From a virus, in IMG/VR virus record IMGVR_UViG_3300036852_000503: a DNA stretch of 64,000 bases; one strand, given 5' to 3'. Below the pieces are notes generated by a model. That model was not told the DNA's origin, ran no database searches, and worked only from the letters and a program-made list of their open reading frames with translations. A program made the position numbers and the translations under genes. Shown one piece after another: positions 55 through 59,430 of the stretch; position 1 is the first letter of the stretch; each line of letters starts with the position of its first letter.

Positions 55-1224
55 CTAGTCCCCCTTGACGTTGAGGATCTGACGCAGCGTGTGCCGCACC
101 TCGACCAGGTCGGCGGCGTCCTTCATGACGACGTCGATGTCCTTGTACGCGCCGGGGATCTCGTCGATGAACGCGTCGGTGTCGCGGTACTCGATGCCGA
201 CCATCGCCTGACGCAGGTCCTCGTGCGTGAACGTCCGACGCGCGACGGTGCGCGAGTAGTTGCGTCCGGCACCGTGCGGCGATGAGTCCAGGGCGAACCG
301 GTCGCCCTTGCCGACCACCACGTACGACGCTGTGCCCATCGAGCCGGGGATCAGACCGGCCGTGCCCACGCTCGCGTCGATCGCGCCCTTGCGGGACAGC
401 CACACCTTCTCGCCGAAGTGACGCTCCTGGACCGTGTAGTTATGATGGCAGTTGATCGTCTCCTGCCGACTGACCGGCTCGCCGATCCAGTCGGCGACGC
501 ACTTGACGACGCGGTCCATCATCTCCTCGCGGTTGAACCAGGCGAACGCCTGCGCCCACCGCATCTCGCGGATGTACTTCCAGAACTCGGGGTCACCGTG
601 GACCAGGTAGGCGAGGTCCGGGTCGGGGAGGTCGATCCACCGACGCCTGCACTGCTCGATCGCGACCTTGATGTGGTGCGTGGCGATCTTGTTGCCGACG
701 CCCCGCGAGCCGCTGTGCAGGAAGAGCCACACACGACCGACCTCGTCGACCGTCACCTCGATGAAGTGGTTGCCCGAGCCGAGCGTGCCGAGCTGAAGCT
801 CCCAGTTCGCCGCGTAGTCACTCGGATCGAACAATGAGTCATCGGCCCGGGCACGTAGCGTGTCGACGCGCAGCTCGGCCGTCGAGGTCAGCCGCGTGTT
901 GTACTTGCCGGCCGACGTCGGCACGGCGGCCTCGATGCTCTCGCGCAGCGGGCGCAGGTCCCGGTTCTTGATGTCGTCCACGTCGAACTGCGTGCGGACG
1001 GCAATCATGCCGCAGCCGATGTCGACGCCGACCGCGGCCGGCATGATCGCGCCGCGCGTGGGGATGACGCTCCCCACCGTCGCCCCCTTGCCCAGGTGCG
1101 CGTCCGGCATGAGCGCGACGTGCGGGTAGATGAACGGCATGGTCGCGATGAGCTCGGCCTGGGCGCGCGTGTTCGGCTCCAGGATCGACGCCCAGTTCAT
1201 GAGTCGGTCGTTGACTCGCTCCAT
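55..1224 (-). CDS. rtcB: RtcB-family RNA 3'-phosphate/5'-OH ligase
   Basis: 389-aa ORF with RtcB hallmarks: MPDAHLGKGATVGSVIPT, GVDIGCGM, GSGNHFIEV, HSGSRGVGNKIA, NCHHNY, PGSMGTASYVV, SSPHGAGR. AGGAA-type RBS upstream of ATG 1224. Confidence 0.93.
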   Translation of the reverse strand: MERVNDRLMNWASILEPNTRAQAELIATMPFIYPHVALMPDAHLGKGATVGSVIPTRGAIMPAAVGVDIGCGMIAVRTQFDVDDIKNRDLRPLRESIEAAVPTSAGKYNTRLTSTAELRVDTLRARADDSLFDPSDYAANWELQLGTLGSGNHFIEVTVDEVGRVWLFLHSGSRGVGNKIATHHIKVAIEQCRRRWIDLPDPDLAYLVHGDPEFWKYIREMRWAQAFAWFNREEMMDRVVKCVADWIGEPVSRQETINCHHNYTVQERHFGEKVWLSRKGAIDASVGTAGLIPGSMGTASYVVVGKGDRFALDSSPHGAGRNYSRTVARRTFTHEDLRQAMVGIEYRDTDAFIDEIPGAYKDIDVVMKDAADLVEVRHTLRQILNVKGD

Positions 1225-5063: not shown

Positions 5064-5102
5064 CGTGCTCTCCTTGGGTTCCGGTGTTCGTGCTCTGTGA
5101 CA

Positions 5103-5131
5103 ACCGTATCAAATATCCCAACACCGTGCAA
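5103..5131 (-). promoter_or_regulatory. Sigma-70-like promoter (TTGCAC-17 nt-TACGGT)
   Basis: Read on the minus strand: -35 TTGCAC (5131-5126), 17-nt spacer, -10 TACGGT (5108-5103). The whole module of about 72 nt down to the ATG is nearly identical to the plus-strand module at 38445-38515. Confidence 0.5.
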
Positions 5132-5152
5132 CCACCAAACCCATCGACCTCA

Positions 5153-5560
5153 CTACCGACGGAGCCGACCGTGCCGCCGCGTCAGCTTCGCGATCGTCGC
5201 CACCGCGTCGTCGCCCGGGTCGGCCACGTCGCGCTGGCCGTGGTCGGCCGCCTCGGCGGCGCTCGCGAACAGCGGCTCGGACGGCGCGGGCACCCCACCC
5301 GCCGGTCGGTCGAAGCGGAGCGCCAGCAAGTCGTGCTCGTGACCGCGCGACGTGTGGCACACGGCCCAGCCGTGGCAGTGGAACTCGGGCGACGCGTGGC
5401 ACGCGAACCCGACCGGCGGCTGCTCGGTCGTGGGTGCGTCGTACCCCCGCAACTTGTCGTACTCGGGCGACGCCCACACGCCGCTGGGAACGTCGCGGCG
5501 GTAGGGGCACGCGCCGCAAGCCTTCACTCGGACCTCGGTCATCTCGTTCACTCCGTTCAC
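5153..5560 (-). CDS. Hypothetical Cys/His-rich protein
   Basis: 135-aa ORF (the start could be ATG 5542); CGACPYRRDVPSGVW...FACHASPEFHCHGWAVCH. Confidence 0.75.
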   Translation of the reverse strand: MNGVNEMTEVRVKACGACPYRRDVPSGVWASPEYDKLRGYDAPTTEQPPVGFACHASPEFHCHGWAVCHTSRGHEHDLLALRFDRPAGGVPAPSEPLFASAAEAADHGQRDVADPGDDAVATIAKLTRRHGRLRR

Positions 5561-6745: not shown

Positions 6746-7012
6746 CTACTCGCTGATCTCCGTGATCTGGCCGGCGAACGTGCGCCGGTCGTCGTTGGCG
6801 TCGCCGTCGGCGTTGTCGACGTACCGGTCGATGACGGCGAGCAGGTCGGCCTCGGTGCCCGTGAACCGGACGACGGGCCACCCGTTGTCGCCCAGGTCGC
6901 GCCCGATCTGGGCCATCACGCCGGGGATGCCGAAGATGAACTTACCCGCGGCGTCCAGCGGGTCCTCGTCCACGTCGTAGACGATGTCGAGTTCGAGCGT
7001 GCACGTGCTCAC
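6746..7012 (-). CDS. Hypothetical acidic protein (88 aa)
   Basis: Track ORF 6746..7132 trimmed to GTG 7012 (CCAAGGAGACCAC upstream); STCTLELDIVYDVDEDPLDAAGKFIFGIPG... Confidence 0.65.
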   Translation of the reverse strand: MSTCTLELDIVYDVDEDPLDAAGKFIFGIPGVMAQIGRDLGDNGWPVVRFTGTEADLLAVIDRYVDNADGDANDDRRTFAGQITEISE

Positions 7013-15967: not shown

Positions 15968-16306
15968 ATGTTCGAGACTCAGGTCCAAGCGGGCGTCGCC
16001 CGGCTGAACGACTGGACCCCCGGTTGGCTCGACCACGTCGACGTGGACGCGCTGGACATGGTGTCCGCCGTCGACTGCGTGGCCGGCCAGGTCGGGCGTA
16101 AGTTGCTCGGCAGCGTCTGGTCGCCGTTCAGTACAACGCTTCGCGCGCTGAACATCCCGCTTCACGACGAGGCCGCGTTCGGCTTCGACATTTCCGAGGA
16201 CATCAGTTCAGTTGATGATCGGCGCGCCGCGTACGTCGCGCTGAACGCCGAGTGGACGCGGGTCATCACGGATCTGAAGGTCGCTTCGGCCGCGCACTTG
16301 TCCTGA
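15968..16306 (+). CDS. Hypothetical protein (112 aa)
   Basis: Track ORF with a strong RBS. Confidence 0.8.
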   Translation: MFETQVQAGVARLNDWTPGWLDHVDVDALDMVSAVDCVAGQVGRKLLGSVWSPFSTTLRALNIPLHDEAAFGFDISEDISSVDDRRAAYVALNAEWTRVITDLKVASAAHLS

Positions 16307-16368
16307 CCGTCGTGAGGCAACCTGCAATAATCTACACCGAACACAGACAGAGAATTGCCGAGGGACTG

Positions 16369-17109
16369 ATGACCACCAAGTTGCACACGGTTCTCGCGCT
16401 CCTCAAGGGAACGCGCCAGCGTGCCTACGCGGCGAACGCGGAGCTGCGCAAGACCGCCAAGAAGAACGACCTGTACGCGGGCATCGCCCGGCGGTACCAG
16501 CCGCGCAAGGAGGACGGCGACACGCTGCCGGAGGAGTCCACGCTCGTCCAGCAGGACGCGGGCGACATCCTGGAGCAGTTCGTCGCGAACCAGGTCAAGC
16601 TGTGGGACCTGACGGGCACGATGGAGGCGACGAGCGGCGTCGCCCGCGCGGACATCATCACCGCCAACAACACCGTGCTGGCGACCGACGTCCCGGCCAC
16701 GTTCATGCTCTTTCTCGAGCGTCAGCTGGACGACGTACGGACGTTCATCAACGACATCCCGACTCTCAACCCGGCCGAGGTTTGGCACACCGACCCGAGC
16801 GGGACGTGGGCGACGGAGCCGTTCAAGACGGTGCGGACCAAGAAGATCCCCCGGAATCACGTGATCGCGCCGGCCACCGACAAGCACCCGGCGCAGGTCC
16901 AGGTGTTCACCGAGGACGAGATCGTCGGCGACTGGACCACGATCAAGTACTCCGGCGCGCTGGCGGCCGGGCACAAGCGCGAGATCATCGACCGGATCGA
17001 CGCGCTCAAGGACGCGGTCAAGTCGGCCCGCGAGCGCGCGAACGAGGCGGAGGTCGTGGAGGTACGCGTGGCGGCACGCCTGTTCGACTACCTGCTCGGT
17101 GGCTCGTAG
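16369..17109 (+). CDS. Hypothetical protein (246 aa)
   Basis: Track ORF 16252..17109 trimmed to ATG 16369 (GAGGGAC upstream); MTTKLHTVLALLKGTRQRAYAANAELRK... Confidence 0.75.
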   Translation: MTTKLHTVLALLKGTRQRAYAANAELRKTAKKNDLYAGIARRYQPRKEDGDTLPEESTLVQQDAGDILEQFVANQVKLWDLTGTMEATSGVARADIITANNTVLATDVPATFMLFLERQLDDVRTFINDIPTLNPAEVWHTDPSGTWATEPFKTVRTKKIPRNHVIAPATDKHPAQVQVFTEDEIVGDWTTIKYSGALAAGHKREIIDRIDALKDAVKSARERANEAEVVEVRVAARLFDYLLGGS

Positions 17110-17113
17110 GACG

Positions 17114-17122
17114 TGGTAGGGT
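17114..17122 (+). promoter_or_regulatory. Extended -10 promoter candidate upstream of the tRNA cluster
   Basis: TGGTAGGGT at 17114-17122, immediately after the stop of the preceding gene. Confidence 0.3.
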
Positions 17123-17203
17123 AGACCACGTCGCGAATACTCCATGGGGATGATGGAGAGCACGAAAGCCGTCGGTCGTGGTGGGCGGGCGGCGAGTAGG
17201 GTA

Positions 17204-17281
17204 GGCACGGTAGCTCAACGGTAGAGCAACGAGCGGCGGGAGTCGCTCTTACGGTTCCAGGTTCGAGTCCTGGACGTGCCG
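17204..17281 (+). tRNA. tRNA-like gene with a non-canonical anticodon arm (identity undetermined)
   Basis: Acceptor GGCACGG/ACGTGCC (6 of 7 bp). D-arm GCTC-AACGGTA-GAGC. T-arm CCAGG-TTCGAGT-CCTGG. Between them are 28 nt instead of about 22: a 5-7 bp stem (GAGCG/CGCTC core) with an 8-nt loop GCGGGAGT, and a 6-nt variable region. Confidence 0.45.
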
Positions 17282-17329
17282 CGCAGCACTAGACACAGAC
17301 GCAGTGACAGTGAAAGACAGATCGGAAAA

Positions 17330-17401
17330 CCCCGTTAGTGGAGGTTCGAGTCCTTCCCGGGACACTCATGCCCCGGTAGCCCAATTGGCAGAGGCGCGGG
17401 G
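17330..17401 (+). ncRNA. Circularly permuted tRNA-like unit B (3' half then 5' half)
   Basis: Order: CCCCG (17330-34), TTAGT, T-arm GGAGG-TTCGAGT-CCTTC, CCGGGAC-A, linker CTCAT, GCCCCGG (17370-76), TA, D-arm GCCC-AATTGGCAG-AGGC, G, CGGGG (17397-401). Acceptor strands pair 6 of 7. CGGGG/CCCCG form a perfect 5-bp anticodon stem. Total 72 nt. Confidence 0.4.
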
Positions 17402-17470
17402 ACCCGCACAGACACTCGCTGCAGACACAGCACGCACGCCTAGGACCGGATCGACTGGTCGTGTCAATGA

Positions 17471-17562
17471 TTCCGAGACGGTGGTTCGAATCCGCCCGCG
17501 CGCTCCAAACATCATGCGCGCGTAGTAGAGTGGCAACACGCGGATCCCTAAGACAAAGTCCG
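17471..17562 (+). ncRNA. Circularly permuted tRNA-like unit C (3' half with encoded CCA, then 5' half)
   Basis: Order: TTCCG (17471-75), AGAC, T-arm GGTGG-TTCGAAT-CCGCC, CGCGCGC-T-CCA (to 17507), 8-nt linker, GCGCGCG (17516-22), TA, weak D-arm with GG, G, CGGAT (17541-45), CCCTAAG... Acceptor pairs 7 of 7; CGGA/TCCG pair. The downstream segment alternatively forms CGGAT-12 nt-GTCCG (17541-62). Confidence 0.35.
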
Positions 17563-17595
17563 ACCTGCACCGCTGCCGGTACGCCGAATAGGCAG

Positions 17596-17667
17596 TACAT
17601 CAAAGCTCAATGGTCGAGCAACTGACTTCTAATCAGTGTGAAGCGGGTTCGATTCCCGCTGATGTCA
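17596..17667 (+). tRNA. tRNA-Arg (anticodon TCT)
   Basis: Acceptor TACATCA/TGATGTC (6 bp plus a 1-72 mismatch). D-arm GCTC-AATGGTC-GAGC. Anticodon arm ACTGA-CTTCTAA-TCAGT. Variable GTGAA. T-arm GCGGG-TTCGATT-CCCGC. Discriminator A; no encoded CCA. Confidence 0.85.
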
Positions 17668-17752
17668 ACATCGCTACCTGCAAAGTAGCTTGGAGGCCGG
17701 TCCTGGGCAGGGCCGGCCTCCGCCATCTACGGACTAGCGTTTGGGGTGAGTC

Positions 17753-17956
17753 GTGGAGAGAGTGAAGATCACGCGCACGATCGTGCACACCGCGTTCGTG
17801 CCTCGCGAGTGTTATCCCGGCATGTCGAGGCGCGCCGTCGTCGATCACGAGACGTCGCTGCCGCTCGCCGAGGCCGTCGAATCACTGGTTGACGCCGGTG
17901 AGTTCGAAGTCCAGCTGACCACCGTCGTGCAGTTCGAGGAGATGAGTGACCGATGA
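17753..17956 (+). CDS. Hypothetical protein (67 aa)
   Basis: Track ORF with ordinary composition. Confidence 0.65.
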   Translation: MERVKITRTIVHTAFVPRECYPGMSRRAVVDHETSLPLAEAVESLVDAGEFEVQLTTVVQFEEMSDR

Positions 17957-18153
17957 GAACGTGTGGGTACGCGGGGATCCGCGACGCCGCCGAGAGTGCA
18001 GCCGTCGCGTTTCACGCGGTGGCCGAGTCGTGCCGTGGTACCGGCACGCCGCTCGGCACGGCGAGCGCGCTGCGAACTGCCAGCGTCGCGCTGGCGGGCA
18101 TGGCCGACGAGTTCACGTCCCTGCACGACGCGATCACCGCGGCCGGTCGGTAG
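17953..18153 (+). CDS. Hypothetical Ala-rich protein (66 aa)
   Basis: Track ORF; ATGA coupling to the upstream gene. Confidence 0.6.
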   Translation: MRTCGYAGIRDAAESAAVAFHAVAESCRGTGTPLGTASALRTASVALAGMADEFTSLHDAITAAGR

Positions 18154-19118
18154 TGCTCCTACTAGTCGACGGTGCGGACTGCGTCGCCAAGTCGACGCTC
18201 GTCCACCGGCTCGTCGACGCGATCACGGCGCGCGAGGCCGACGGTCGACTCGACGTCAGGCACGCCGGGCCGCCGACGAGCCATCCTCTGGACGAGTACG
18301 AGACGCCGCTCCTGGACTACCGCCCGGGAACCGGTCGGCACGTCGTCTGCGACCGTTGGCACCTCGGGGAGGCGGTCTACCCGGCTGTGTTCGGGCGCCC
18401 CACCAAGTTCGACGACGCCGTGCGACTCCACGTGGACCTATTCCTCCGGTCGCGCGGCGCGTTGGTCGTCGTGGTCACCGCGCGCGCCACGCGCGTCCAG
18501 CAGTGCATCGAGGAGCGCGGCGACGACCTGGTCACGTCCGACATGGTCCACGCGATCCAGTCGGGCTTCACCGACGCCCTGCGGATGAGCCTGGTGCCGT
18601 TCGTCGTCGTCAACGGCTACGAGGTGACCGACGACGACGTCCGGCTCATCATCGAGCGCGCCGACGCCGAGGCGCGCGGCGCCGCGCGGCTCAACCAGTT
18701 CACGACGTACGTCGGACCGGCGCGCCCCGCGACGCTCCTCCTGGGCGACGTGCGCCACGGGTCTGACGGCGACCCGGGTGACCTGCGACCCGCGTTCATG
18801 CCGTACCCGGCGACGTCGGGGCACTACGCGCTCGGCGAGGTCGCGCGCCGGTGGCCGATCACCGCGCTGGCGGGTCTGGGCATCGCGAACGCGTGCGACG
18901 TCGACGACCCGGTCGAGCTGCGCGCGGCGCTGGGCGACCCGGTCACGGTCACGCTCGGCCGCAACGCCCAGCGGCGACTACCCGGGATGGCGCGCGAGTT
19001 GCCGCACCCGCAGTGGGTCCGGCGTTTTCAACACCGGAGCGGCGACGCGTACGCCGCCATGCTGCTCGGTGAACCCATTCCCGACGTGTACTCGCAGGTC
19101 GAGCTCACGCTACCGTAA
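18153..19118 (+). CDS. P-loop nucleotide/nucleoside-monophosphate kinase-like domain fused to a UDG-superfamily-like domain
   Basis: Track ORF 17946..19118 trimmed to GTG 18153 (TAGTG overlap). N-terminal LLLVDGADCVAKSTLVHRLV with a DRWH-type segment (CDRWHLGEAVY). The C-terminal half has LLLGDVRHGSDGDPGDLRPAFMPYPATSGHYAL and LPHPQWVRR, resembling UDG family-4 motifs A and B. Confidence 0.5.
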   Translation: MLLLVDGADCVAKSTLVHRLVDAITAREADGRLDVRHAGPPTSHPLDEYETPLLDYRPGTGRHVVCDRWHLGEAVYPAVFGRPTKFDDAVRLHVDLFLRSRGALVVVVTARATRVQQCIEERGDDLVTSDMVHAIQSGFTDALRMSLVPFVVVNGYEVTDDDVRLIIERADAEARGAARLNQFTTYVGPARPATLLLGDVRHGSDGDPGDLRPAFMPYPATSGHYALGEVARRWPITALAGLGIANACDVDDPVELRAALGDPVTVTLGRNAQRRLPGMARELPHPQWVRRFQHRSGDAYAAMLLGEPIPDVYSQVELTLP

Positions 19119-36474: not shown

Positions 36475-37473
36475 ATGACCTCAACGCTCGAGTCCCCCGC
36501 CCCCGCCCCCGCCCTCGCCGACTACGCCGAGCAGGGAGGCGAGAAGATGTTCAGCTCGCGTCGGCTGCCCTGGGCCAAGATCGGCACGGTCATCGACGAC
36601 CCGAGCGTGGATGCCGCCACGGCCGCGCAGCTCGGCGGTCTCGACTTCGACGTCGAGCTGCGGAGCGTGCGCTACAACGTCGTCAACGCCGACGGCATCA
36701 AGTCCACCAAGACCATCCCGAACCGCAAGGCCGTCGTACGGGTCGGCACCGACGAGTTCTTCGACGTGGTGAGCACGAAGTACGTGCCGGTCCAGTACCG
36801 CGACGCGTTCTCGTTCCTGGACGGCATTCACCCCCGCTACGTGTCGGCGGGTACGATGGGTGGCGGTAAGCAGGGCTTCATGGTCATTCAACTCCCCGGC
36901 GCCGAGGACGTCTCCGTGGACGTCAACGGCGTGAACGACCCGCACATGCTCTACGTGATCGTTCGCACGTCGCACGACCGCTCCAAGGCCCTCGAGGTCG
37001 CCGTGATGCCGCTGCGCGGACTGTGCATGAACATGCTCGGCCTGCCCTCGCTCACCCGAGGCGCCGAGCAGCGCTGGTCGTTCAAGCACGTCGGCGACGT
37101 CGCCGAGAAGTTGGAGCAGGCCCAGGCCACGCTGCTCAAGACGGAGAAGTACGTCGACGCGTTCCGAGGCACGGTGCGGCAGCTCGCGTCGGTCACGCTG
37201 GACGGCGACGACGTCAACACGATCCTCAAGCGCGTCCTGCCGGACCGCCCGATGCGCGACGACGCGATCGCCGCGATCACGGCGTCGTACACGGACAGCC
37301 CGGCCGTGGGCTTCACCGGCACCGGCTGGGGCCTCACGAACGCGGTGAGCGAGTACTTCCAGTGGGGCCGGAACGAGGGCTCGCGCACCGACCAGTCGAT
37401 GTTCACCTCCGCGCTGTCCGGCGACACGCGCAAGTACGTCGGCCGGACCGCCCAGCTCCTGCTGACCAGGTAG
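36475..37473 (+). CDS. DUF932-like phage/plasmid protein
   Basis: 332 aa; the overall pattern (LPWAKIGTVIDD...FDVVSTKYVPVQYRDAF...GGGKQGFMVIQLP...VRTSHDRSKA) matches my recollection of the DUF932/TIGR03299 family. Confidence 0.55.
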   Translation: MTSTLESPAPAPALADYAEQGGEKMFSSRRLPWAKIGTVIDDPSVDAATAAQLGGLDFDVELRSVRYNVVNADGIKSTKTIPNRKAVVRVGTDEFFDVVSTKYVPVQYRDAFSFLDGIHPRYVSAGTMGGGKQGFMVIQLPGAEDVSVDVNGVNDPHMLYVIVRTSHDRSKALEVAVMPLRGLCMNMLGLPSLTRGAEQRWSFKHVGDVAEKLEQAQATLLKTEKYVDAFRGTVRQLASVTLDGDDVNTILKRVLPDRPMRDDAIAAITASYTDSPAVGFTGTGWGLTNAVSEYFQWGRNEGSRTDQSMFTSALSGDTRKYVGRTAQLLLTR

Positions 37474-37536: not shown

Positions 37537-37603
37537 GGGTCCGTAGCTCAACTGGTTGAGCGCCTCGACGGAGGAGTTGTAGGTTCGAATCCTACCGGGC
37601 CCA
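37537..37603 (+). ncRNA. tRNA-like element whose anticodon arm is a 4-bp stem with a tetraloop
   Basis: Acceptor GGGTCCG/CGGGCCC (7 bp including one G-T), TA, D-arm GCTC-AACTGGTT-GAGC, G, then only 12 nt CCTC-GACG-GAGG where 17 are expected, variable AGTT, T-arm GTAGG-TTCGAAT-CCTAC, discriminator A. Confidence 0.5.
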
Positions 37604-56850: not shown

Positions 56851-59430
56851 TTAAACCTCCTTGAGAATGCGCTTGCCCAGCATTGCCATGACGTGCTTGA
56901 GCGCGTCGCTGTCACGCTCCTGCTCGGTCATGATGTTGCCGATGGTCATGAAGCCCGCGGCCACCAGCGACTGCGGTACGCCGCTGGCGATGCGCGCCCG
57001 CGTGCGCAGGTGGAAGCCCGCGACGTTGACGCCGAGTAGACCGACCAGGCGCAGCTCGCCGCCGATGCGCCGCCAGTCGCCGCTCACTCGGCCGGACGCC
57101 CGCAAATCGTGCACGCGCGCCGACTCGGCGTGCGGTCGGATCGCGCCGGCGACCCAGATGCCGACCTCGTCGTTACCCACGACGACGTCGGCGACGACGC
57201 TGCCCGTGTTGTCGTAGTGCTCGGCGGCGCGCGACGCGCGGTACGACAGCGGCGCGTGGCCGGTGGCCACCGTGATCTGGCCCACGGCGACGTGCGAGCC
57301 GTCGGCGCACACCACCTCACCGGTCATGAAGTACGGGTGCGCGTCCTCGACCGGCGGGCTCACGCAGATGTCGTCGAACCCGACGTGGCACTCACCCCAC
57401 TGCGCGGCGTGCCCGTAGACGCGACCCTGGTCGGTGATGGTGATGCCGACGGGAACGCTGAGTCCCGGGTTCTCGAACCACGCGCTCGGCGGTCGCCACG
57501 CGTCCAGCTTGGCCTGCTCGGCCGCGGCCACCAGCGTCGCGTCGTTGAACTGCGCCGGTGGTGGCTCGCGGTCGGCGTCGCGGAGGTGCGCGGCCAGGTG
57601 ATCGTAAATACCCTGACGCTCGCCGGCCGGCACCGTTGTGCCGCCTCGACCGCCGTTGAGTACGCCGATGCCGCTGGAGCACGCCGTGAGGTTGGCCGCG
57701 CCGGGCTTGCCGTCGGCCCCGACCTCGTGGTGCAGGAACTTGGCGGCCGACTTCGTGACCTTGCCGTTCTCCACCGCACCGTCGTCGAGCCAAGCGTAGC
57801 CCATGCGAGCCGTGTCGACGGACATCGGCGACGGCAACCGCTTCTCGTTGATGCCAACATCCCAGGGGACATCTGACGTGGCCGTAGAATGCGTGCCAAC
57901 GGCGCCAAACTTCAGCTCCGCTACGGCTGCCAGGGCGGCCGTGAGCGCGTCGACGTCGTCGCCGACCAGCGAGACGGTCGCCTCGACGAATGCCGGGATG
58001 TCGACCAGTGTGGCCCCGCGAACGCGCCCGCCGTGGTATACGATCTTCTCCGGGCGGCCGAACAGCGCGTCCAGTGGGTTGCCGGCGTCGCCCTCGTCCC
58101 CCGTGGGCGACTCCGGCCAGACGACCTCGACGTCCGCGTCGGCGATGTCGTCGGCGTCGATCGAGATGCCGCCCGCGAAGCCGTCGTTGAGCCTGCGGCG
58201 GATCTCGAAGCCGTCGGGGCTCTTGATGTCGAGCACGCCCGCGCCCATGATCTTCTCGCCGTCGCGCCACACCTTGTCGGCTCGACCGACGGTCACGGTG
58301 ACGTCGTGCTCGCCGCCGTGCGCCGTCTCCTTCTGCCAGCGGATCAGCACCTGGTCCGCCCACGTGAGCGCGCCGGGTGCGAACTCGCGACCGTCGCCGG
58401 TGGTGATGCCCTCGACGGCCAGGACGCCCGTCCACAAGCGCGCCTTCTCGAACTCGGCGTCGGTCATGAACGAACCGTCGCCAACACGCTGGTAGCCGGC
58501 GGGCGTCTCGCCGTCGCCGGGCATCATCTTGTCGCCAGGCATGCCGTCACCACCGGTCACGGCGAACGTACTGGTCGAGACGACGCCCATCTTTCCACCT
58601 TCGTCGTTGGTGTAGAGCGCGGCAATCTGCTCGTCGGCGGACTGCTCGGTGTCGTGGCAACCCATGACCTCGTCGTTGTCATCCTGCACGACGGCCCACG
58701 GTTCGGCCGCCGAGCACGCGGCGTGGTTCTCCACCTTGTGCCACGGCATCGGTGCACCTCCCAATGATGATGTTAGTGTAACAGGTTCGCCCAACGGCAC
58801 GTCGGTGACGTCATTCCCGAACGCGACACGGACCTGATCGAACGTCACCGGGCCGACTCGCTCCGAAACGGCATCCAGTAGATCCTCATCTGAGTACGCA
58901 ATGCAAATGTGCGGCTGCCACGGCATGTGCTGCTCGGGCATGTCGAATTCGCTGAGATTCGACCTAATGAGGGCACGGATCGTCGCGAGCTGCGACTGAC
59001 CGTCCTCACTGGTCTCGTCGCTCGCGTCGCCGACGTTGACGACCCACGCCGGCTCGTCGCTCCCGGGGTTCCAGTGTGCCACGCCGAACGCGTTGCCCTG
59101 GATCGGCCAGAACTCACGGGCCACCTCCGTCACCGCGTCGACGACGTAGTTGCGCACGTCATCCGGGAAGTCGCTCTTACCCAGGTACCAGAGGGTGAGG
59201 TGCAGCTCGTCGGCGGGTTCGTACCCGTCGAGCGCGAGTCGCGCGACGTCGGCGTCGCTTGGGACCAGGGCGATCATGCCACCGTCGAACTTATCTGTGT
59301 TAACTGCCGCGGTGACGACGTCCAGAGGTTCACCGTTGAGTAGTCGTGTGATCTCGTCGTTGGTGAAGCCCTCGTCCTCATCCACCACGGTGAACATGAC
59401 GTTATTCGGATCGGACAACGGCGTTGACAC
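56851..59430 (-). CDS. Capsid maturation protease with an N-terminal 2H (LigT-like) phosphoesterase domain
   Basis: 859 aa. Residues about 50-205 carry two HxT/S-type motifs (ELHLTLWYLG; QPHICIAYS) in LigT-like spacing. The middle and C-terminal parts resemble prohead protease regions (GVLAVEGITTGDGREF..., GHAAQWGECHVGF). Confidence 0.6.
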   Translation of the reverse strand: MSTPLSDPNNVMFTVVDEDEGFTNDEITRLLNGEPLDVVTAAVNTDKFDGGMIALVPSDADVARLALDGYEPADELHLTLWYLGKSDFPDDVRNYVVDAVTEVAREFWPIQGNAFGVAHWNPGSDEPAWVVNVGDASDETSEDGQSQLATIRALIRSNLSEFDMPEQHMPWQPHICIAYSDEDLLDAVSERVGPVTFDQVRVAFGNDVTDVPLGEPVTLTSSLGGAPMPWHKVENHAACSAAEPWAVVQDDNDEVMGCHDTEQSADEQIAALYTNDEGGKMGVVSTSTFAVTGGDGMPGDKMMPGDGETPAGYQRVGDGSFMTDAEFEKARLWTGVLAVEGITTGDGREFAPGALTWADQVLIRWQKETAHGGEHDVTVTVGRADKVWRDGEKIMGAGVLDIKSPDGFEIRRRLNDGFAGGISIDADDIADADVEVVWPESPTGDEGDAGNPLDALFGRPEKIVYHGGRVRGATLVDIPAFVEATVSLVGDDVDALTAALAAVAELKFGAVGTHSTATSDVPWDVGINEKRLPSPMSVDTARMGYAWLDDGAVENGKVTKSAAKFLHHEVGADGKPGAANLTACSSGIGVLNGGRGGTTVPAGERQGIYDHLAAHLRDADREPPPAQFNDATLVAAAEQAKLDAWRPPSAWFENPGLSVPVGITITDQGRVYGHAAQWGECHVGFDDICVSPPVEDAHPYFMTGEVVCADGSHVAVGQITVATGHAPLSYRASRAAEHYDNTGSVVADVVVGNDEVGIWVAGAIRPHAESARVHDLRASGRVSGDWRRIGGELRLVGLLGVNVAGFHLRTRARIASGVPQSLVAAGFMTIGNIMTEQERDSDALKHVMAMLGKRILKEV

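What the first reader, a model, noticed from the sequence alone, without database searches (positions are those of the whole stretch)
17330..17562. Two adjacent tRNA-sized units arranged as circular permutations (3' half upstream of its own 5' half)
Four T-arms occur in 17204-17667, but only the last belongs to a canonical tRNA. For the T-arms at 17340 and 17480, no matching 5' acceptor strand exists upstream. The complement lies 6-12 nt downstream and is followed by TA, a D-arm and a 5-nt strand that pairs with the 5 nt sitting one variable loop upstream of the T-arm. Unit B pairs acceptor 6 of 7 and has a perfect CGGGG/CCCCG anticodon stem. Unit C pairs acceptor 7 of 7 and CGGA/TCCG, and encodes CCA. 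Each unit is 72-75 nt, that is a whole tRNA opened at the anticodon loop and closed at the acceptor end. If joined at the loop, the 5' parts would present CCG (B) and CUA (C), both preceded by C rather than U33. As far as I know, permuted tRNA genes are described in a few algae and archaea, not in phages. This genome also encodes RtcB, the ligase that joins tRNA halves. The less exciting alternative is decay or rearrangement of a former tRNA array. The alternating-GC acceptor of unit C makes that particular match less surprising.
Basis: partly seen in the sequence, partly recalled or inferred. Interest (0 to 1): 0.85.

Follow-up and report, generated by a model that had tools for sequence, protein, structure and literature searches.

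The report
tRNA-mimic small RNA pair beside DUF7873
The two "inside-out tRNAs" are real, but they are not split tRNA genes waiting to be re-joined: they are two conserved tRNA-mimicking small RNAs of the bacterial Y-RNA (YrlA) type, and they follow an uncharacterised protein gene (DUF7873) in about 95% of the 160 phage and bacterial loci I examined.

Summary
Units B (core 17330-17401) and C (core 17472-17544) have the order AC-like strand, variable loop, T arm, acceptor 3' strand, short linker, acceptor 5' strand, UA, D arm, AC-like strand. A strict scanner finds exactly these two in 64 kb, against 0.06 expected by chance.

The two ends of each unit are closed by conserved, covarying helices and internal loops, not by a re-joinable anticodon loop. 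This topology is that of the tRNA-like Y RNA YrlA, which is the only Rfam similarity (24.6 bits, below threshold). A genuine YrlA from a Ro-encoding phage scores only 32.5 bits.

Both units belong to a fixed pair, here called type 1 and type 2, that lies directly downstream of a DUF7873 gene. My covariance models find type 2 in 76 of 80 viral loci and 77 of 80 bacterial genome loci. Acceptor stems are almost always 7/7 paired, with very different sequences. No Ro60 gene was found in the window or in the complete genome of phage Keelan, and RtcB is not a conserved neighbour.

Best reading: a Y-RNA-like tRNA-mimic pair, probably nicked by RNase P at the acceptor hairpin, that partners with DUF7873 or host Ro60. 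I class it as a new variant of a known kind. Its function is unknown.

The parts
16369..17109 (+). DUF7873 protein gene (246 aa). It is the conserved upstream neighbour of the RNA pair.
   Evidence: Pfam PF25283, E = 3.1e-84. A 246-aa homolog is 99% identical. The AF2 model has pLDDT 90.4 and no fold match in the PDB or BFVD.
16303..16331 (+). Promoter-like site upstream of the DUF7873 gene. It is a possible start of a DUF7873-plus-RNA transcript.
   Evidence: It is the only sigma-70-like match in 16000-18000, with 0.1 expected. This is a consensus match only.
17204..17282 (+). tRNA-like element of normal topology without an anticodon loop. It has a 7-bp stem capped by a GGGA tetraloop.
   Evidence: ARAGORN calls it tRNA-??? 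and Rfam tRNA scores 39.9 bits. A syntenic counterpart lies at L010 1564-1639.
17283..17422 (+).
   Evidence: The type 1 model (R2) hits 17269-17455 at 127 bits, but the window is in the training set. Rfam YrlA hits 17307-17425 at 24.6 bits. P1 is inferred from covariation between loci.
17340..17376 (+). Unit B: T arm (17340-56), acceptor 3' strand (17357-63), linker ACUCAU (17364-69) and acceptor 5' strand (17370-76).
   Evidence: The acceptor helix is 97.6% paired across 30 homologs, and all 7 pairs show changes on both sides.
17445..17580 (+).
   Evidence: The type 2 model (R1) hits 17432-17588 at 104.5 bits, but the window is in the training set. The six-helix structure is 91.8% paired, with covariation score 0.876 against 0.25 in shuffles.
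17480..17522 (+). Unit C: T arm (17480-96), acceptor 3' strand (17497-17503), encoded UCCA (17504-07), linker (17508-15) and acceptor 5' strand (17516-22).
   Evidence: The acceptor is 99.6% paired across 37 homologs. L010 keeps 7 of 7 pairs through two compensatory changes.
17596..17667 (+). Canonical tRNA-Arg(UCU), the last gene of the array.
   Evidence: ARAGORN. Rfam tRNA 57.9 bits.
17691..17720 (+). GC-rich hairpin that ends the array (GGAGGCCGG...CCGGCCUCC).
   Evidence: The sequence is. The same hairpin is present in L010 with compensatory changes (GAUGGCCGG...CCGGCCAUC).
55..1224 (-). RtcB RNA ligase gene. It is present in the window but not linked to the RNA pair.
   Evidence: Pfam PF01139, E = 4.6e-120.

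Best explanation
Units B and C are two non-coding tRNA-mimic RNAs of the Y-RNA-like (YrlA) architectural class. They are not tRNA genes. Each RNA is roughly 140-190 nt. Its 5' and 3' ends pair into a long, imperfect stem with conserved internal loops. The stem is capped by a three-way junction that reproduces the tRNA T arm, a 7-bp acceptor helix closed by a short loop, and the D arm.

Shown here. The pair (type 1 then type 2) is a fixed module directly downstream of a DUF7873 gene. Type 2 is present in about 95% of the 160 viral and bacterial DUF7873 loci examined, and type 1 in most of them. The window carries the phage-borne copy, placed between two further tRNA-like genes.

Inferred. (a) D-loop GG and T-loop UUCRA contacts fold the cap into a tRNA-like L shape. 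(b) RNase P cuts 5' of G+1 in the acceptor hairpin, and the 3' strand ends in NCCA, either encoded (as in unit C) or added. This would give a nicked two-piece RNA, as was shown experimentally for Mycobacterium smegmatis YrlA (PMC4201824). (c) The conserved stem loops are protein-binding sites. In type 2 these are 5' AUCGAMY opposite 3' YUUAAACGYSG; in type 1 they are the 6-nt-periodic AGAYUS repeats. (d) The strict synteny makes the DUF7873 protein the prime candidate partner, with host Ro60/Rsr as the alternative. The biological role is unknown. It is probably tRNA-related RNA surveillance, repair, or decoy or tether activity.
For: Topology and chance: (2 units found, 0.06 expected).

Rfam: the only Rfam similarity for unit B is YrlA, over the full model, in the same T-acceptor-D order. 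Homologous units score 21-37 bits. The genuine YrlA of Ro-encoding phage Bxz1 scores only 32.5 bits, so sub-threshold scores are normal for phage members.

Covariation, type 1: 91.5% of cells paired, score 0.579 against 0.161 in shuffles (0 of 500 reach it) and at most 0.21 when partners are slid.

Covariation, type 2: 91.8% paired, score 0.876 against 0.250 (0 of 500) and at most 0.19 when slid. This includes the two end-closing helices Pa and Pb.

Long 5'/3' stem of type 1: cofolding of the flanks gives nested long-range pairing in most of 30 homologs, mean z = -1.6.

Synteny: the type 2 model gives full-length hits in 77 of 80 genome loci (58-124 bits, nearly all outside the training set) and 76 of 80 viral loci. 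Hits lie 150-400 nt after the DUF7873 stop in most loci and on the same strand in all but one. The type 1 model gives full-length hits of 100-153 bits in about 60 of 80 genome loci. The strict scanner finds units downstream in 63 of 74 viral and 66 of 73 genome loci, against 3 of 74 and 0 of 73 in upstream control windows.

RNase P-type features: acceptor 7/7 in about 98% of units, G+1 in 153 of 181, NCCA encoded in 32 of 80 viral units.

Experimental precedent: PMC4201824.

No Ro60 in cis: window; complete Keelan genome; two bacterial loci, 6 kb either side.
Against: No expression, processing or binding data exist for this family; everything beyond structure and synteny is inference. Rfam YrlA scores are far below the gathering score (24.6 against 69). 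The YrlA 5' motif GNCGAAN0-1G is matched only loosely (AUCGACUG in unit C, AGUGAAAG in unit B). The stem modules do not align with the genuine Bxz1 YrlA: my type 2 model matches only its tRNA-like core, at 28.8 bits.

DUF7873 has no recognisable RNA-binding fold and no structural neighbour, so the proposed partnership rests on gene order alone. Herpetosiphon DUF7873 loci lack the RNAs. The type 1 P1 helix and long stem are less rigorously supported than the type 2 helices because the alignment register is noisy.
Confidence: 0.72

Rival explanations
1. These are ordinary Ro60-dependent Y RNAs (YrlA plus YrlB). They are made by the phage to bind the host's Rsr/Ro60 ring, and DUF7873 is only a bystander neighbour.
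For: They have the same permuted tRNA-like module as YrlA. M. smegmatis also has two tandem RNAs processed from one precursor. The type 2 5' loop strand AUCGAAUG/AUCGACUG resembles GNCGAAN0-1G. The motif CUUAAACGCCG is shared with the Bxz1 YrlA.
Against: No Ro60 gene was found in the window, in complete phage Keelan, or within 6 kb either side of two bacterial loci. The conserved neighbour is DUF7873 in about 95% of loci. Ro-encoding and DUF7873-encoding phages are largely different sets. The stem modules differ from the Bxz1 YrlA. Whether the hosts encode Rsr elsewhere was not tested.
Confidence: 0.2
2. These are true permuted tRNA genes. The transcript ends are cut and ligated (for example by RtcB) to form an anticodon loop, and the acceptor linker is removed, yielding decoding tRNAs.
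For: The cloverleaf is permuted, the acceptor has 7 bp, CCA is encoded, and RtcB is in the genome. Closing helices also occur in algal permuted pre-tRNAs (own knowledge).
Against: No conserved 7-nt loop with U33 and R37 can be reconstituted. The residues next to the AC-like stem are variable in length or form family-wide conserved motifs and helices. Only two types exist across 160 loci, with no anticodon diversity. In some Streptomyces genomes the tRNA-like domain of type 1 is lost while the flanks are kept. RtcB is not syntenic, and none is annotated in Keelan. Bacteria have no bulge-helix-bulge splicing endonuclease (established knowledge).
Confidence: 0.04
3. These are decay or rearrangement debris of a former tRNA array, or a false positive from a tRNA dimer (the T arm of one tRNA followed by the D arm of the next).
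For: The units sit inside a tRNA-like array. The dimer artefact was noted by Chen et al.. The 5' half of unit B is 97% identical to the 5' half of the Keelan tRNA-Leu.
Against: The two acceptor strands of each unit are mutually complementary in about 98% of homologs despite very different sequences. All helices covary. The position and order after DUF7873 are fixed across phyla.
Confidence: 0.01
4. These are two-piece (permuted) tmRNA-like molecules that act in ribosome rescue.
For: There are weak partial Rfam hits to cyano_tmRNA, beta_tmRNA and tmRNA_permuted over the T arm plus acceptor hairpin. The two-piece logic and the CCA end also fit.
Against: ARAGORN finds no tmRNA. G3:U70 is rare. 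The hits cover only the T arm and acceptor hairpin. I did not look for a tag reading frame or pseudoknots.
Confidence: 0.01

Closest known systems
YrlA, the tRNA-like bacterial Y RNA (Rfam RF02553; Chen et al. 2014, PMC4201824)
   Same: The order is the same: closing stem, variable region, T arm, acceptor-like hairpin, D arm, closing stem. The tRNA tertiary-contact nucleotides are conserved. In actinobacteria the acceptor has 7 bp, and in M. smegmatis the RNA is cut by RNase P and carries CCA. Two RNAs lie in tandem. The elements sit in phage tRNA-array regions. There is a loose NCGAA-type motif in the 5' stem strand.
   Different: The units score below the Rfam gathering score. The neighbour gene is DUF7873, not Ro60/Rsr. 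The stem modules differ: type 2 has Pa, an AUCGAMY/UUAAACG loop and Pb, and type 1 has 6-nt periodic repeats. Ro binding is untested.
Permuted tRNA genes of Cyanidioschyzon merolae, other algae and Thermofilum (own knowledge)
   Same: The 3' half is encoded upstream of the 5' half, and the two are joined by a short linker at the acceptor end.
   Different: Those genes yield decoding tRNAs through bulge-helix-bulge cleavage and ligation. Their permutation points vary and they cover many anticodons. Here there is no reconstitutable anticodon loop, the ends are closed by conserved helices, and only two types exist.
Two-piece (circularly permuted) tmRNA of alpha-proteobacteria and cyanobacteria
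   Same: The gene order is permuted so that the T arm and 3' acceptor-CCA precede the 5' acceptor strand. The likely product is a nicked two-piece RNA held together by base pairing.
   Different: ARAGORN finds no tmRNA, and there is no alanine identity pair. I did not look for a tag reading frame or pseudoknots. The units are much smaller than tmRNA.

Membership tests
Canonical tRNA | Contiguous cloverleaf recognised by ARAGORN or by Rfam RF00005 | tested here: not met
   There is no tRNA call over 17330-17401 or 17471-17552.
Permuted tRNA gene | The 3' half lies upstream of its own 5' half, with the acceptor strands complementary across a short linker | tested here: met
Permuted tRNA gene | The ends can be joined to give a 7-nt anticodon loop (U33, R37), and anticodons differ among family members | tested here: not met
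   The flanks of the AC-like stem are conserved motifs or helices, or vary in length. Only two types exist across 160 loci.
Permuted tRNA gene | A bulge-helix-bulge motif at the junction and a splicing endonuclease | tested here: not met
   The closing region is Pa, a large asymmetric loop, Pb and another loop, not a 3-4-3 bulge-helix-bulge. No endonuclease gene was seen among the ORFs scanned. The bulge-helix-bulge motif was not searched for with a dedicated tool.
YrlA (RF02553) | T arm, acceptor-like hairpin and D arm, in that order, closed by a stem formed by the 5' and 3' ends | tested here: met
YrlA (RF02553) | Reaches the Rfam gathering score (69 bits) | tested here: not met
   Unit B scores 24.6 bits. 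Unit C has no YrlA hit. The genuine Bxz1 YrlA also fails, at 32.5 bits.
YrlA (RF02553) | Encoded next to a Ro60/Rsr (TROVE) gene | tested here: not met
   Pfam scans of about 40 of the larger window ORFs found no TROVE domain. Parts of the phage genome beyond the window are unseen.
YrlA (RF02553) | GNCGAAN0-1G motif in the 5' strand of the Ro-binding stem | tested here: inconclusive
   Unit C has AUCGACUG and unit B has AGUGAAAG. The family consensus is AUCGAMYG.
YrlA (RF02553) | Bound by Rsr in vivo | not testable with these tools
   This needs immunoprecipitation.
Two-piece tmRNA | G3:U70 pair, tag reading frame and pseudoknots, with detection by ARAGORN | tested here: not met
   ARAGORN is negative. 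G3:U70 occurs in about 11 of 181 units. Rfam gives only partial T-arm and acceptor hits. I did not look for a tag reading frame or pseudoknots.
DUF7873-associated RNA pair (defined here) | Type 1 then type 2 RNA on the coding strand, within about 700 nt downstream of a DUF7873 gene, matching models R2 and R1 | tested here: met
   Window hits are 127 and 104.5 bits, but the window is in the training sets. The independent syntenic relative L010 shows compensatory changes. There are 77 of 80 genome and 76 of 80 viral full-length type 2 hits.

The most novel reading that the evidence does not exclude
DUF7873 and its two downstream tRNA-mimic RNAs form a previously unrecognised ribonucleoprotein. 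It would be a Ro60-independent counterpart of the Ro/Y-RNA system. It is widespread in Actinobacteria, Chloroflexi, cyanobacteria and many phages, where it sits in tRNA arrays. The RNAs would be nicked by RNase P into two-piece molecules that end in CCA. The 6-nt periodic repeats of type 1 would serve as a platform for an oligomerising protein.
Probability: 0.45. Interest if true: 0.8.

Novelty: new variant of a known kind. Interest (0 to 1): 0.62.

Why it matters
tRNA-like Y RNAs have so far been defined by their Ro60 partner. Here the same tRNA-mimic design sits in a strictly conserved module with a different, wholly uncharacterised protein family. That family has a confident AF2 model with no structural neighbour, and it occurs in at least 584 species genomes and 266 IMG/VR stretches.

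This gives a testable handle on what tRNA mimicry is for in bacteria and phages, and a likely first function for DUF7873. It also has a practical use. Phage and Streptomyces annotations leave these 300-500-nt gaps empty or fill them with doubtful "hypothetical protein" calls. The two covariance models built here would annotate them.

Finally, it corrects an attractive but wrong reading. There is no evidence here for permuted, re-ligated tRNA genes in phages.

Tried and rejected
- Single-sequence MFE folding of the units with flanks gave z-scores near 0 and was uninformative.
- Megablast of the array (16500-18500) and of 14500-39000 against INPHARED phages found nothing. Distant blastn found only generic tRNA similarity, plus the Keelan tRNA-Leu 5' half.
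- Exact-sequence look-ups of the window's RtcB and long-ORF DUF7873 failed, probably because of start-codon choice. A single-sequence IMG/VR scan with DUF7873 also failed. The profile scan worked.
- For DUF7873, PDB sequence and profile searches, Foldseek against the PDB and BFVD, and the PHROGs, PADLOC and NCBIfam libraries gave nothing significant. Several very weak Cas7-family Foldseek hits (probability below 0.1, TM about 0.1) are not evidence, so I did not build on them.
- RNAalifold on the raw MAFFT alignment recovered only the T, acceptor and D helices. The AC-like stem and the end-closing helices had to be specified and tested by hand. The register of P1 in type 1 remains noisy.
- Literature searches for DUF7873, for permuted tRNA in phages, and for YrlA in Streptomyces found nothing on this module. 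The 2020 Annual Review on bacterial Ro60 was not available.
- An early version of the counting script was wrong because alignment rows overwrote locus sequences. Corrected.
Full report
**1. The observation**

The window (66.6% G+C) carries four T loops between 17204 and 17667. ARAGORN and Rfam accept 17596-17667 as tRNA-Arg(UCU). They flag 17204-17282 as an aberrant tRNA, and they call nothing over the two middle T arms.

- Unit B is CCCCG / UUAGU / GGAGG-UUCGAGU-CCUUC / CCGGGAC / ACUCAU / GCCCCGG / UA / GCCC-AAUUGGCA-GAGGC / G / CGGGG (17330-17401).
- Unit C is UCCG / AGAC / GGUGG-UUCGAAU-CCGCC / CGCGCGC / UCCA-AACAUCAU / GCGCGCG / UA / GUAG-AGUGGCA-ACAC / G / CGGA (17472-17544).

A strict scanner for [quoted passage not shown] finds exactly these two units in the 64 kb. 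It finds 0.06 on average in shuffles. RtcB is present at 55-1224 on the minus strand. The observation therefore stands.

**2. What the topology matches**

A permissive Rfam scan of 16900-18000 gives one relevant hit. It is YrlA (Y RNA-like, RF02553) over 17307-17425. The full model is matched, at 24.6 bits against a gathering score of 69, and the helices come in the same order as the model's T, acceptor-like and D helices.

Chen et al. 2014 (PMC4201824) described YrlA as a Ro60-bound RNA. Its effector module mimics tRNA, with the acceptor stem closed by a loop and the RNA ends forming the Ro-binding stem. That is the same circular permutation.

In Mycobacterium smegmatis the YrlA acceptor stem has 7 bp. 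The RNA is cut by RNase P and carries CCA in vivo. A second RNA, YrlB, is processed from the same precursor.

As a calibration I examined the Ro-encoding mycobacteriophage Bxz1. The element upstream of its Ro gene (L174 4980-5056) scores only 32.5 bits with the Rfam model. Sub-threshold scores are therefore normal for phage members.

**3. Relatives and the conserved module**

The gene immediately upstream of the array is a DUF7873 protein. It lies at 16369-17109, has 246 aa, and matches Pfam at E = 3.1e-84. No close DNA relative exists among sequenced phages.

Protein searches led to DUF7873 genes in Gordonia, Arthrobacter and Rhodococcus phages. In each one a 400-580-nt unannotated gap follows the gene. 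Each gap holds two permuted units that give YrlA-type sub-threshold hits. I call the two units type 1 and type 2.

- **Type 1** has the nearly invariant D arm UAGCCCAAnnGGnAGAGGC. Its flanks carry 6-nt periodic repeats.
- **Type 2** has a 5' AUCGAMYG motif and a 3' CUUAAACGYSG motif.

Unit B is a type 1 RNA and unit C is a type 2 RNA.

A metagenomic contig, L010, encodes a DUF7873 that is 75% identical to the window's. It has the whole array in synteny and shows compensatory changes relative to the window:

| Element | Window | L010 |
|---|---|---|
| Unit C acceptor | CGCGCGC/GCGCGCG | CGUGCUC/GAGCACG |
| Unit C T stem | GGUGG/CCGCC | GCUGG/CCAGC |
| Unit C Pb | GGUCG/CGACC | GAUCACG/CGUGAUC |
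| Unit C Pa | ACCGG/CCGGU | CAUCGA/UCGAUG |
| Unit B, helix beyond the AC-like stem | CGG/CCG | GGGA/UCCC |

A profile scan with the DUF7873 alignment gave 266 IMG/VR stretches and at least 584 species genomes. The genomes include Streptomyces, Actinoplanes, Catenulispora, Actinomadura, Chloroflexota, a Deinococcales MAG and Oscillatoria. The best 80 loci of each set were fetched.

**4. Structure tests**

*Type 1* (alignment A2, 30 sequences). The T, acceptor, D and AC-like helices are 91.5% paired. The covariation score is 0.579, against 0.161 in shuffles (0 of 500 reach it) and at most 0.21 when partners are slid. All seven acceptor pairs show changes on both sides.

*Type 2* (alignment A3, 37 sequences). 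A six-helix structure is 91.8% paired. The covariation score is 0.876, against 0.250 in shuffles (0 of 500) and at most 0.19 when slid.

| Helix | % paired |
|---|---|
| Pa | 93 |
| Pb | 88.5 |
| AC-like | 67 (register noise) |
| T | 100 |
| Acceptor | 99.6 |
| D | 95 |

Pa and Pb close the RNA ends around a conserved internal loop.

For type 1, cofolding of the flanks gives a long, nested, imperfect 5'/3' stem in most homologs. A short helix, P1, covaries between loci: GGAGC/GCUCC, AAGCG/CGCUU, UAGCG/CGCUA, GGGGU/ACCCC, and GCAGC/GCUGC in the window. The register of P1 is less secure.

**5. Strength of the association**

I built two covariance models, R1 for type 2 and R2 for type 1.

- R1 finds a full-length type 2 RNA in 77 of 80 genome loci, at 58-124 bits and E from 1e-12 to 1e-28. 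Apart from one Streptomyces locus, these sequences were not in the training set. It also finds type 2 in 76 of 80 viral loci.
- These hits lie 150-400 nt after the DUF7873 stop in most loci and on the coding strand in all but one (L030).
- R2 finds full-length type 1 RNAs at 100-153 bits in about 60 of 80 genome loci. About 17 further loci have shorter copies in which the tRNA-like domain is missing but the flanks are kept.
- The strict scanner finds units downstream in 63 of 74 viral and 66 of 73 genome loci. Equal-sized upstream control windows give 3 of 74 and 0 of 73.
- Only the Herpetosiphon loci lack the RNAs.
- Rfam sees nothing in these loci other than sub-threshold YrlA.

**6. Why these are not permuted tRNA genes**

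No U33/R37-type 7-nt loop can be reconstituted.

(b) There are only two types, each with a fixed D arm. There is no isoacceptor diversity.

(c) Some Streptomyces genomes keep the type 1 flanks and lose the tRNA-like cap.

(d) RtcB is not syntenic. It is 16 kb away on the other strand here, and none is annotated in the complete 67.5-kb genome of Keelan, which carries the pair.

(e) Bacteria have no bulge-helix-bulge endonuclease (established knowledge).

Decay of a tRNA array is excluded by the covariation and the fixed synteny. A tmRNA-like role is unsupported: ARAGORN is negative and G3:U70 is rare. I did not look for a tag reading frame.

**7. The partner**

No TROVE/Ro60 domain was found in any of these places:

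- about 40 of the larger ORFs of the window;
- the annotation of Keelan, or a Pfam scan of four of its ORFs (three unannotated, one annotated as an AAA-ATPase);
- 6 kb either side of two bacterial loci.

Among sequenced phages, Ro occurs mainly in Mycobacterium (211 records) and Streptomyces (about 117) phages. DUF7873 occurs in Vibrio, Gordonia, Rhizobium, Klebsiella, Serratia, Arthrobacter and cyanophage records. The Gordonia phages listed with full-length Ro are not the ones with DUF7873. I could not inspect every record, so some overlap cannot be excluded.

DUF7873 gives a confident AF2 model (pLDDT 90.4). It has no significant neighbour in the PDB or BFVD, and no hit in PHROGs, PADLOC or NCBIfam.

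The type 2 5' loop strand (AUCGAAUG or AUCGACUG) resembles the YrlA GNCGAAN0-1G motif. The motif CUUAAACGCCG also occurs in the Bxz1 YrlA. However, my type 2 model matches only the tRNA-like core of that RNA, at 28.8 bits.

I therefore favour DUF7873 as the partner, on the strength of synteny. I keep host Ro60 as a live alternative.

**8. Mechanism, with shown and inferred steps marked**

Shown:
- the permuted tRNA-like fold;
- the closing helices;
- the conserved loops;
- the fixed gene order;
- the strong selection for a 7-bp acceptor (about 98% are 7/7) with G+1 (153 of 181);
- frequent encoded NCCA in phage copies (32 of 80).

Inferred:
- transcription together with DUF7873, based on a promoter-like site at 16303-16331 and a conserved hairpin at 17691-17720;
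- an L-shaped fold;
- RNase P cleavage 5' of G17370 and G17516, and a 3' end at NCCA, by analogy with M. smegmatis YrlA;
- protein binding at the stem loops.

The biological role is unknown. It may be surveillance, repair tethering, or decoy activity towards enzymes that recognise tRNA.

**9. Verdict**

The finding is real and non-random, but the proposed explanation is wrong. The elements are a new, unannotated variant of the tRNA-mimic Y-RNA class, in a widespread module with an uncharacterised protein. I found no description of this module in the searchable literature. That search cannot exclude papers in subscription journals.

Noticed in passing
window 17204-17282; L010 1564-1639: A tRNA-like gene of normal topology lacks an anticodon loop. 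In the window it has a 7-bp stem capped by a GGGA tetraloop. In the syntenic relative L010 it has an 8-bp stem with a 6-nt loop. ARAGORN reports tRNA-??? for both. It sits directly before the type 1 RNA.
   Followed up: partly
window 37537-37603: A second tRNA-like element without an anticodon. Rfam tRNA scores it at 53.5 bits and ARAGORN does not call it. It is 67 nt long and its anticodon arm is replaced by CCUC-GACG-GAGG. It lies downstream of a DUF932 gene (36475-37473).
   Followed up: partly
window 17290-17325 and 17410-17435; alignment A2: The flanks of type 1 RNAs carry 6-nt periodic repeats (AGAYUS). In the window the 5' flank reads AGACAC AGACGC AGUGAC AGUGAA AGACAG. An A is invariant every 6 nt across 30 homologs (positions 33, 39, 45, 51 and 57 of the first row). 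This suggests a periodic protein-binding platform or a regularly mismatched helix.
   Followed up: partly
L123/L007 about 6850-6920, and about 17 other Streptomyces loci: In these loci the type 1 copies have lost the tRNA-like domain, which is replaced by a simple hairpin, but they keep the conserved flanks. The type 1 model (R2) hits them at 40-66 bits over about 140 nt.
   Followed up: partly
L001 3566-3811 (Keelan gp126); L006 3985-4194 (Ziko gp126): Annotated 'hypothetical protein' CDSs overlap the conserved RNAs in these phages. They are probably spurious gene calls.
   Followed up: no
L174 4980-5056 and about 5100-5200 (Bxz1, upstream of Ro gp220): The genuine YrlA of this Ro-encoding phage scores only 32.5 bits with Rfam. 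It shares the motif CUUAAACGCCGG with the type 2 RNAs. A second, YrlB-like RNA with GCCGAAGG follows it.
   Followed up: partly
window 56851-59430 (-): An 859-aa ORF in the structural gene block has a sub-threshold 2'-5' RNA ligase (2H phosphoesterase) domain at its N-terminus (23.9 bits against a cut-off of 27).
   Followed up: no
L030 3440-3595 (-): In this one viral locus the type 2 RNA is on the opposite strand, about 1.2 kb downstream of the DUF7873 gene. It is an exception to the otherwise fixed layout.
   Followed up: no
L092-L094, L009 (Herpetosiphon): These DUF7873 genes have neither RNA downstream. The gap instead holds short direct repeats and a long GC-rich palindrome.
   Followed up: no
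alignments A2 and A3, linker before the acceptor 5' strand: In type 1 a C three bases before G+1 is invariant (CAU|G, CGA|G, CAC|G). In the window this is C17367. Its significance is unknown.
   Followed up: no
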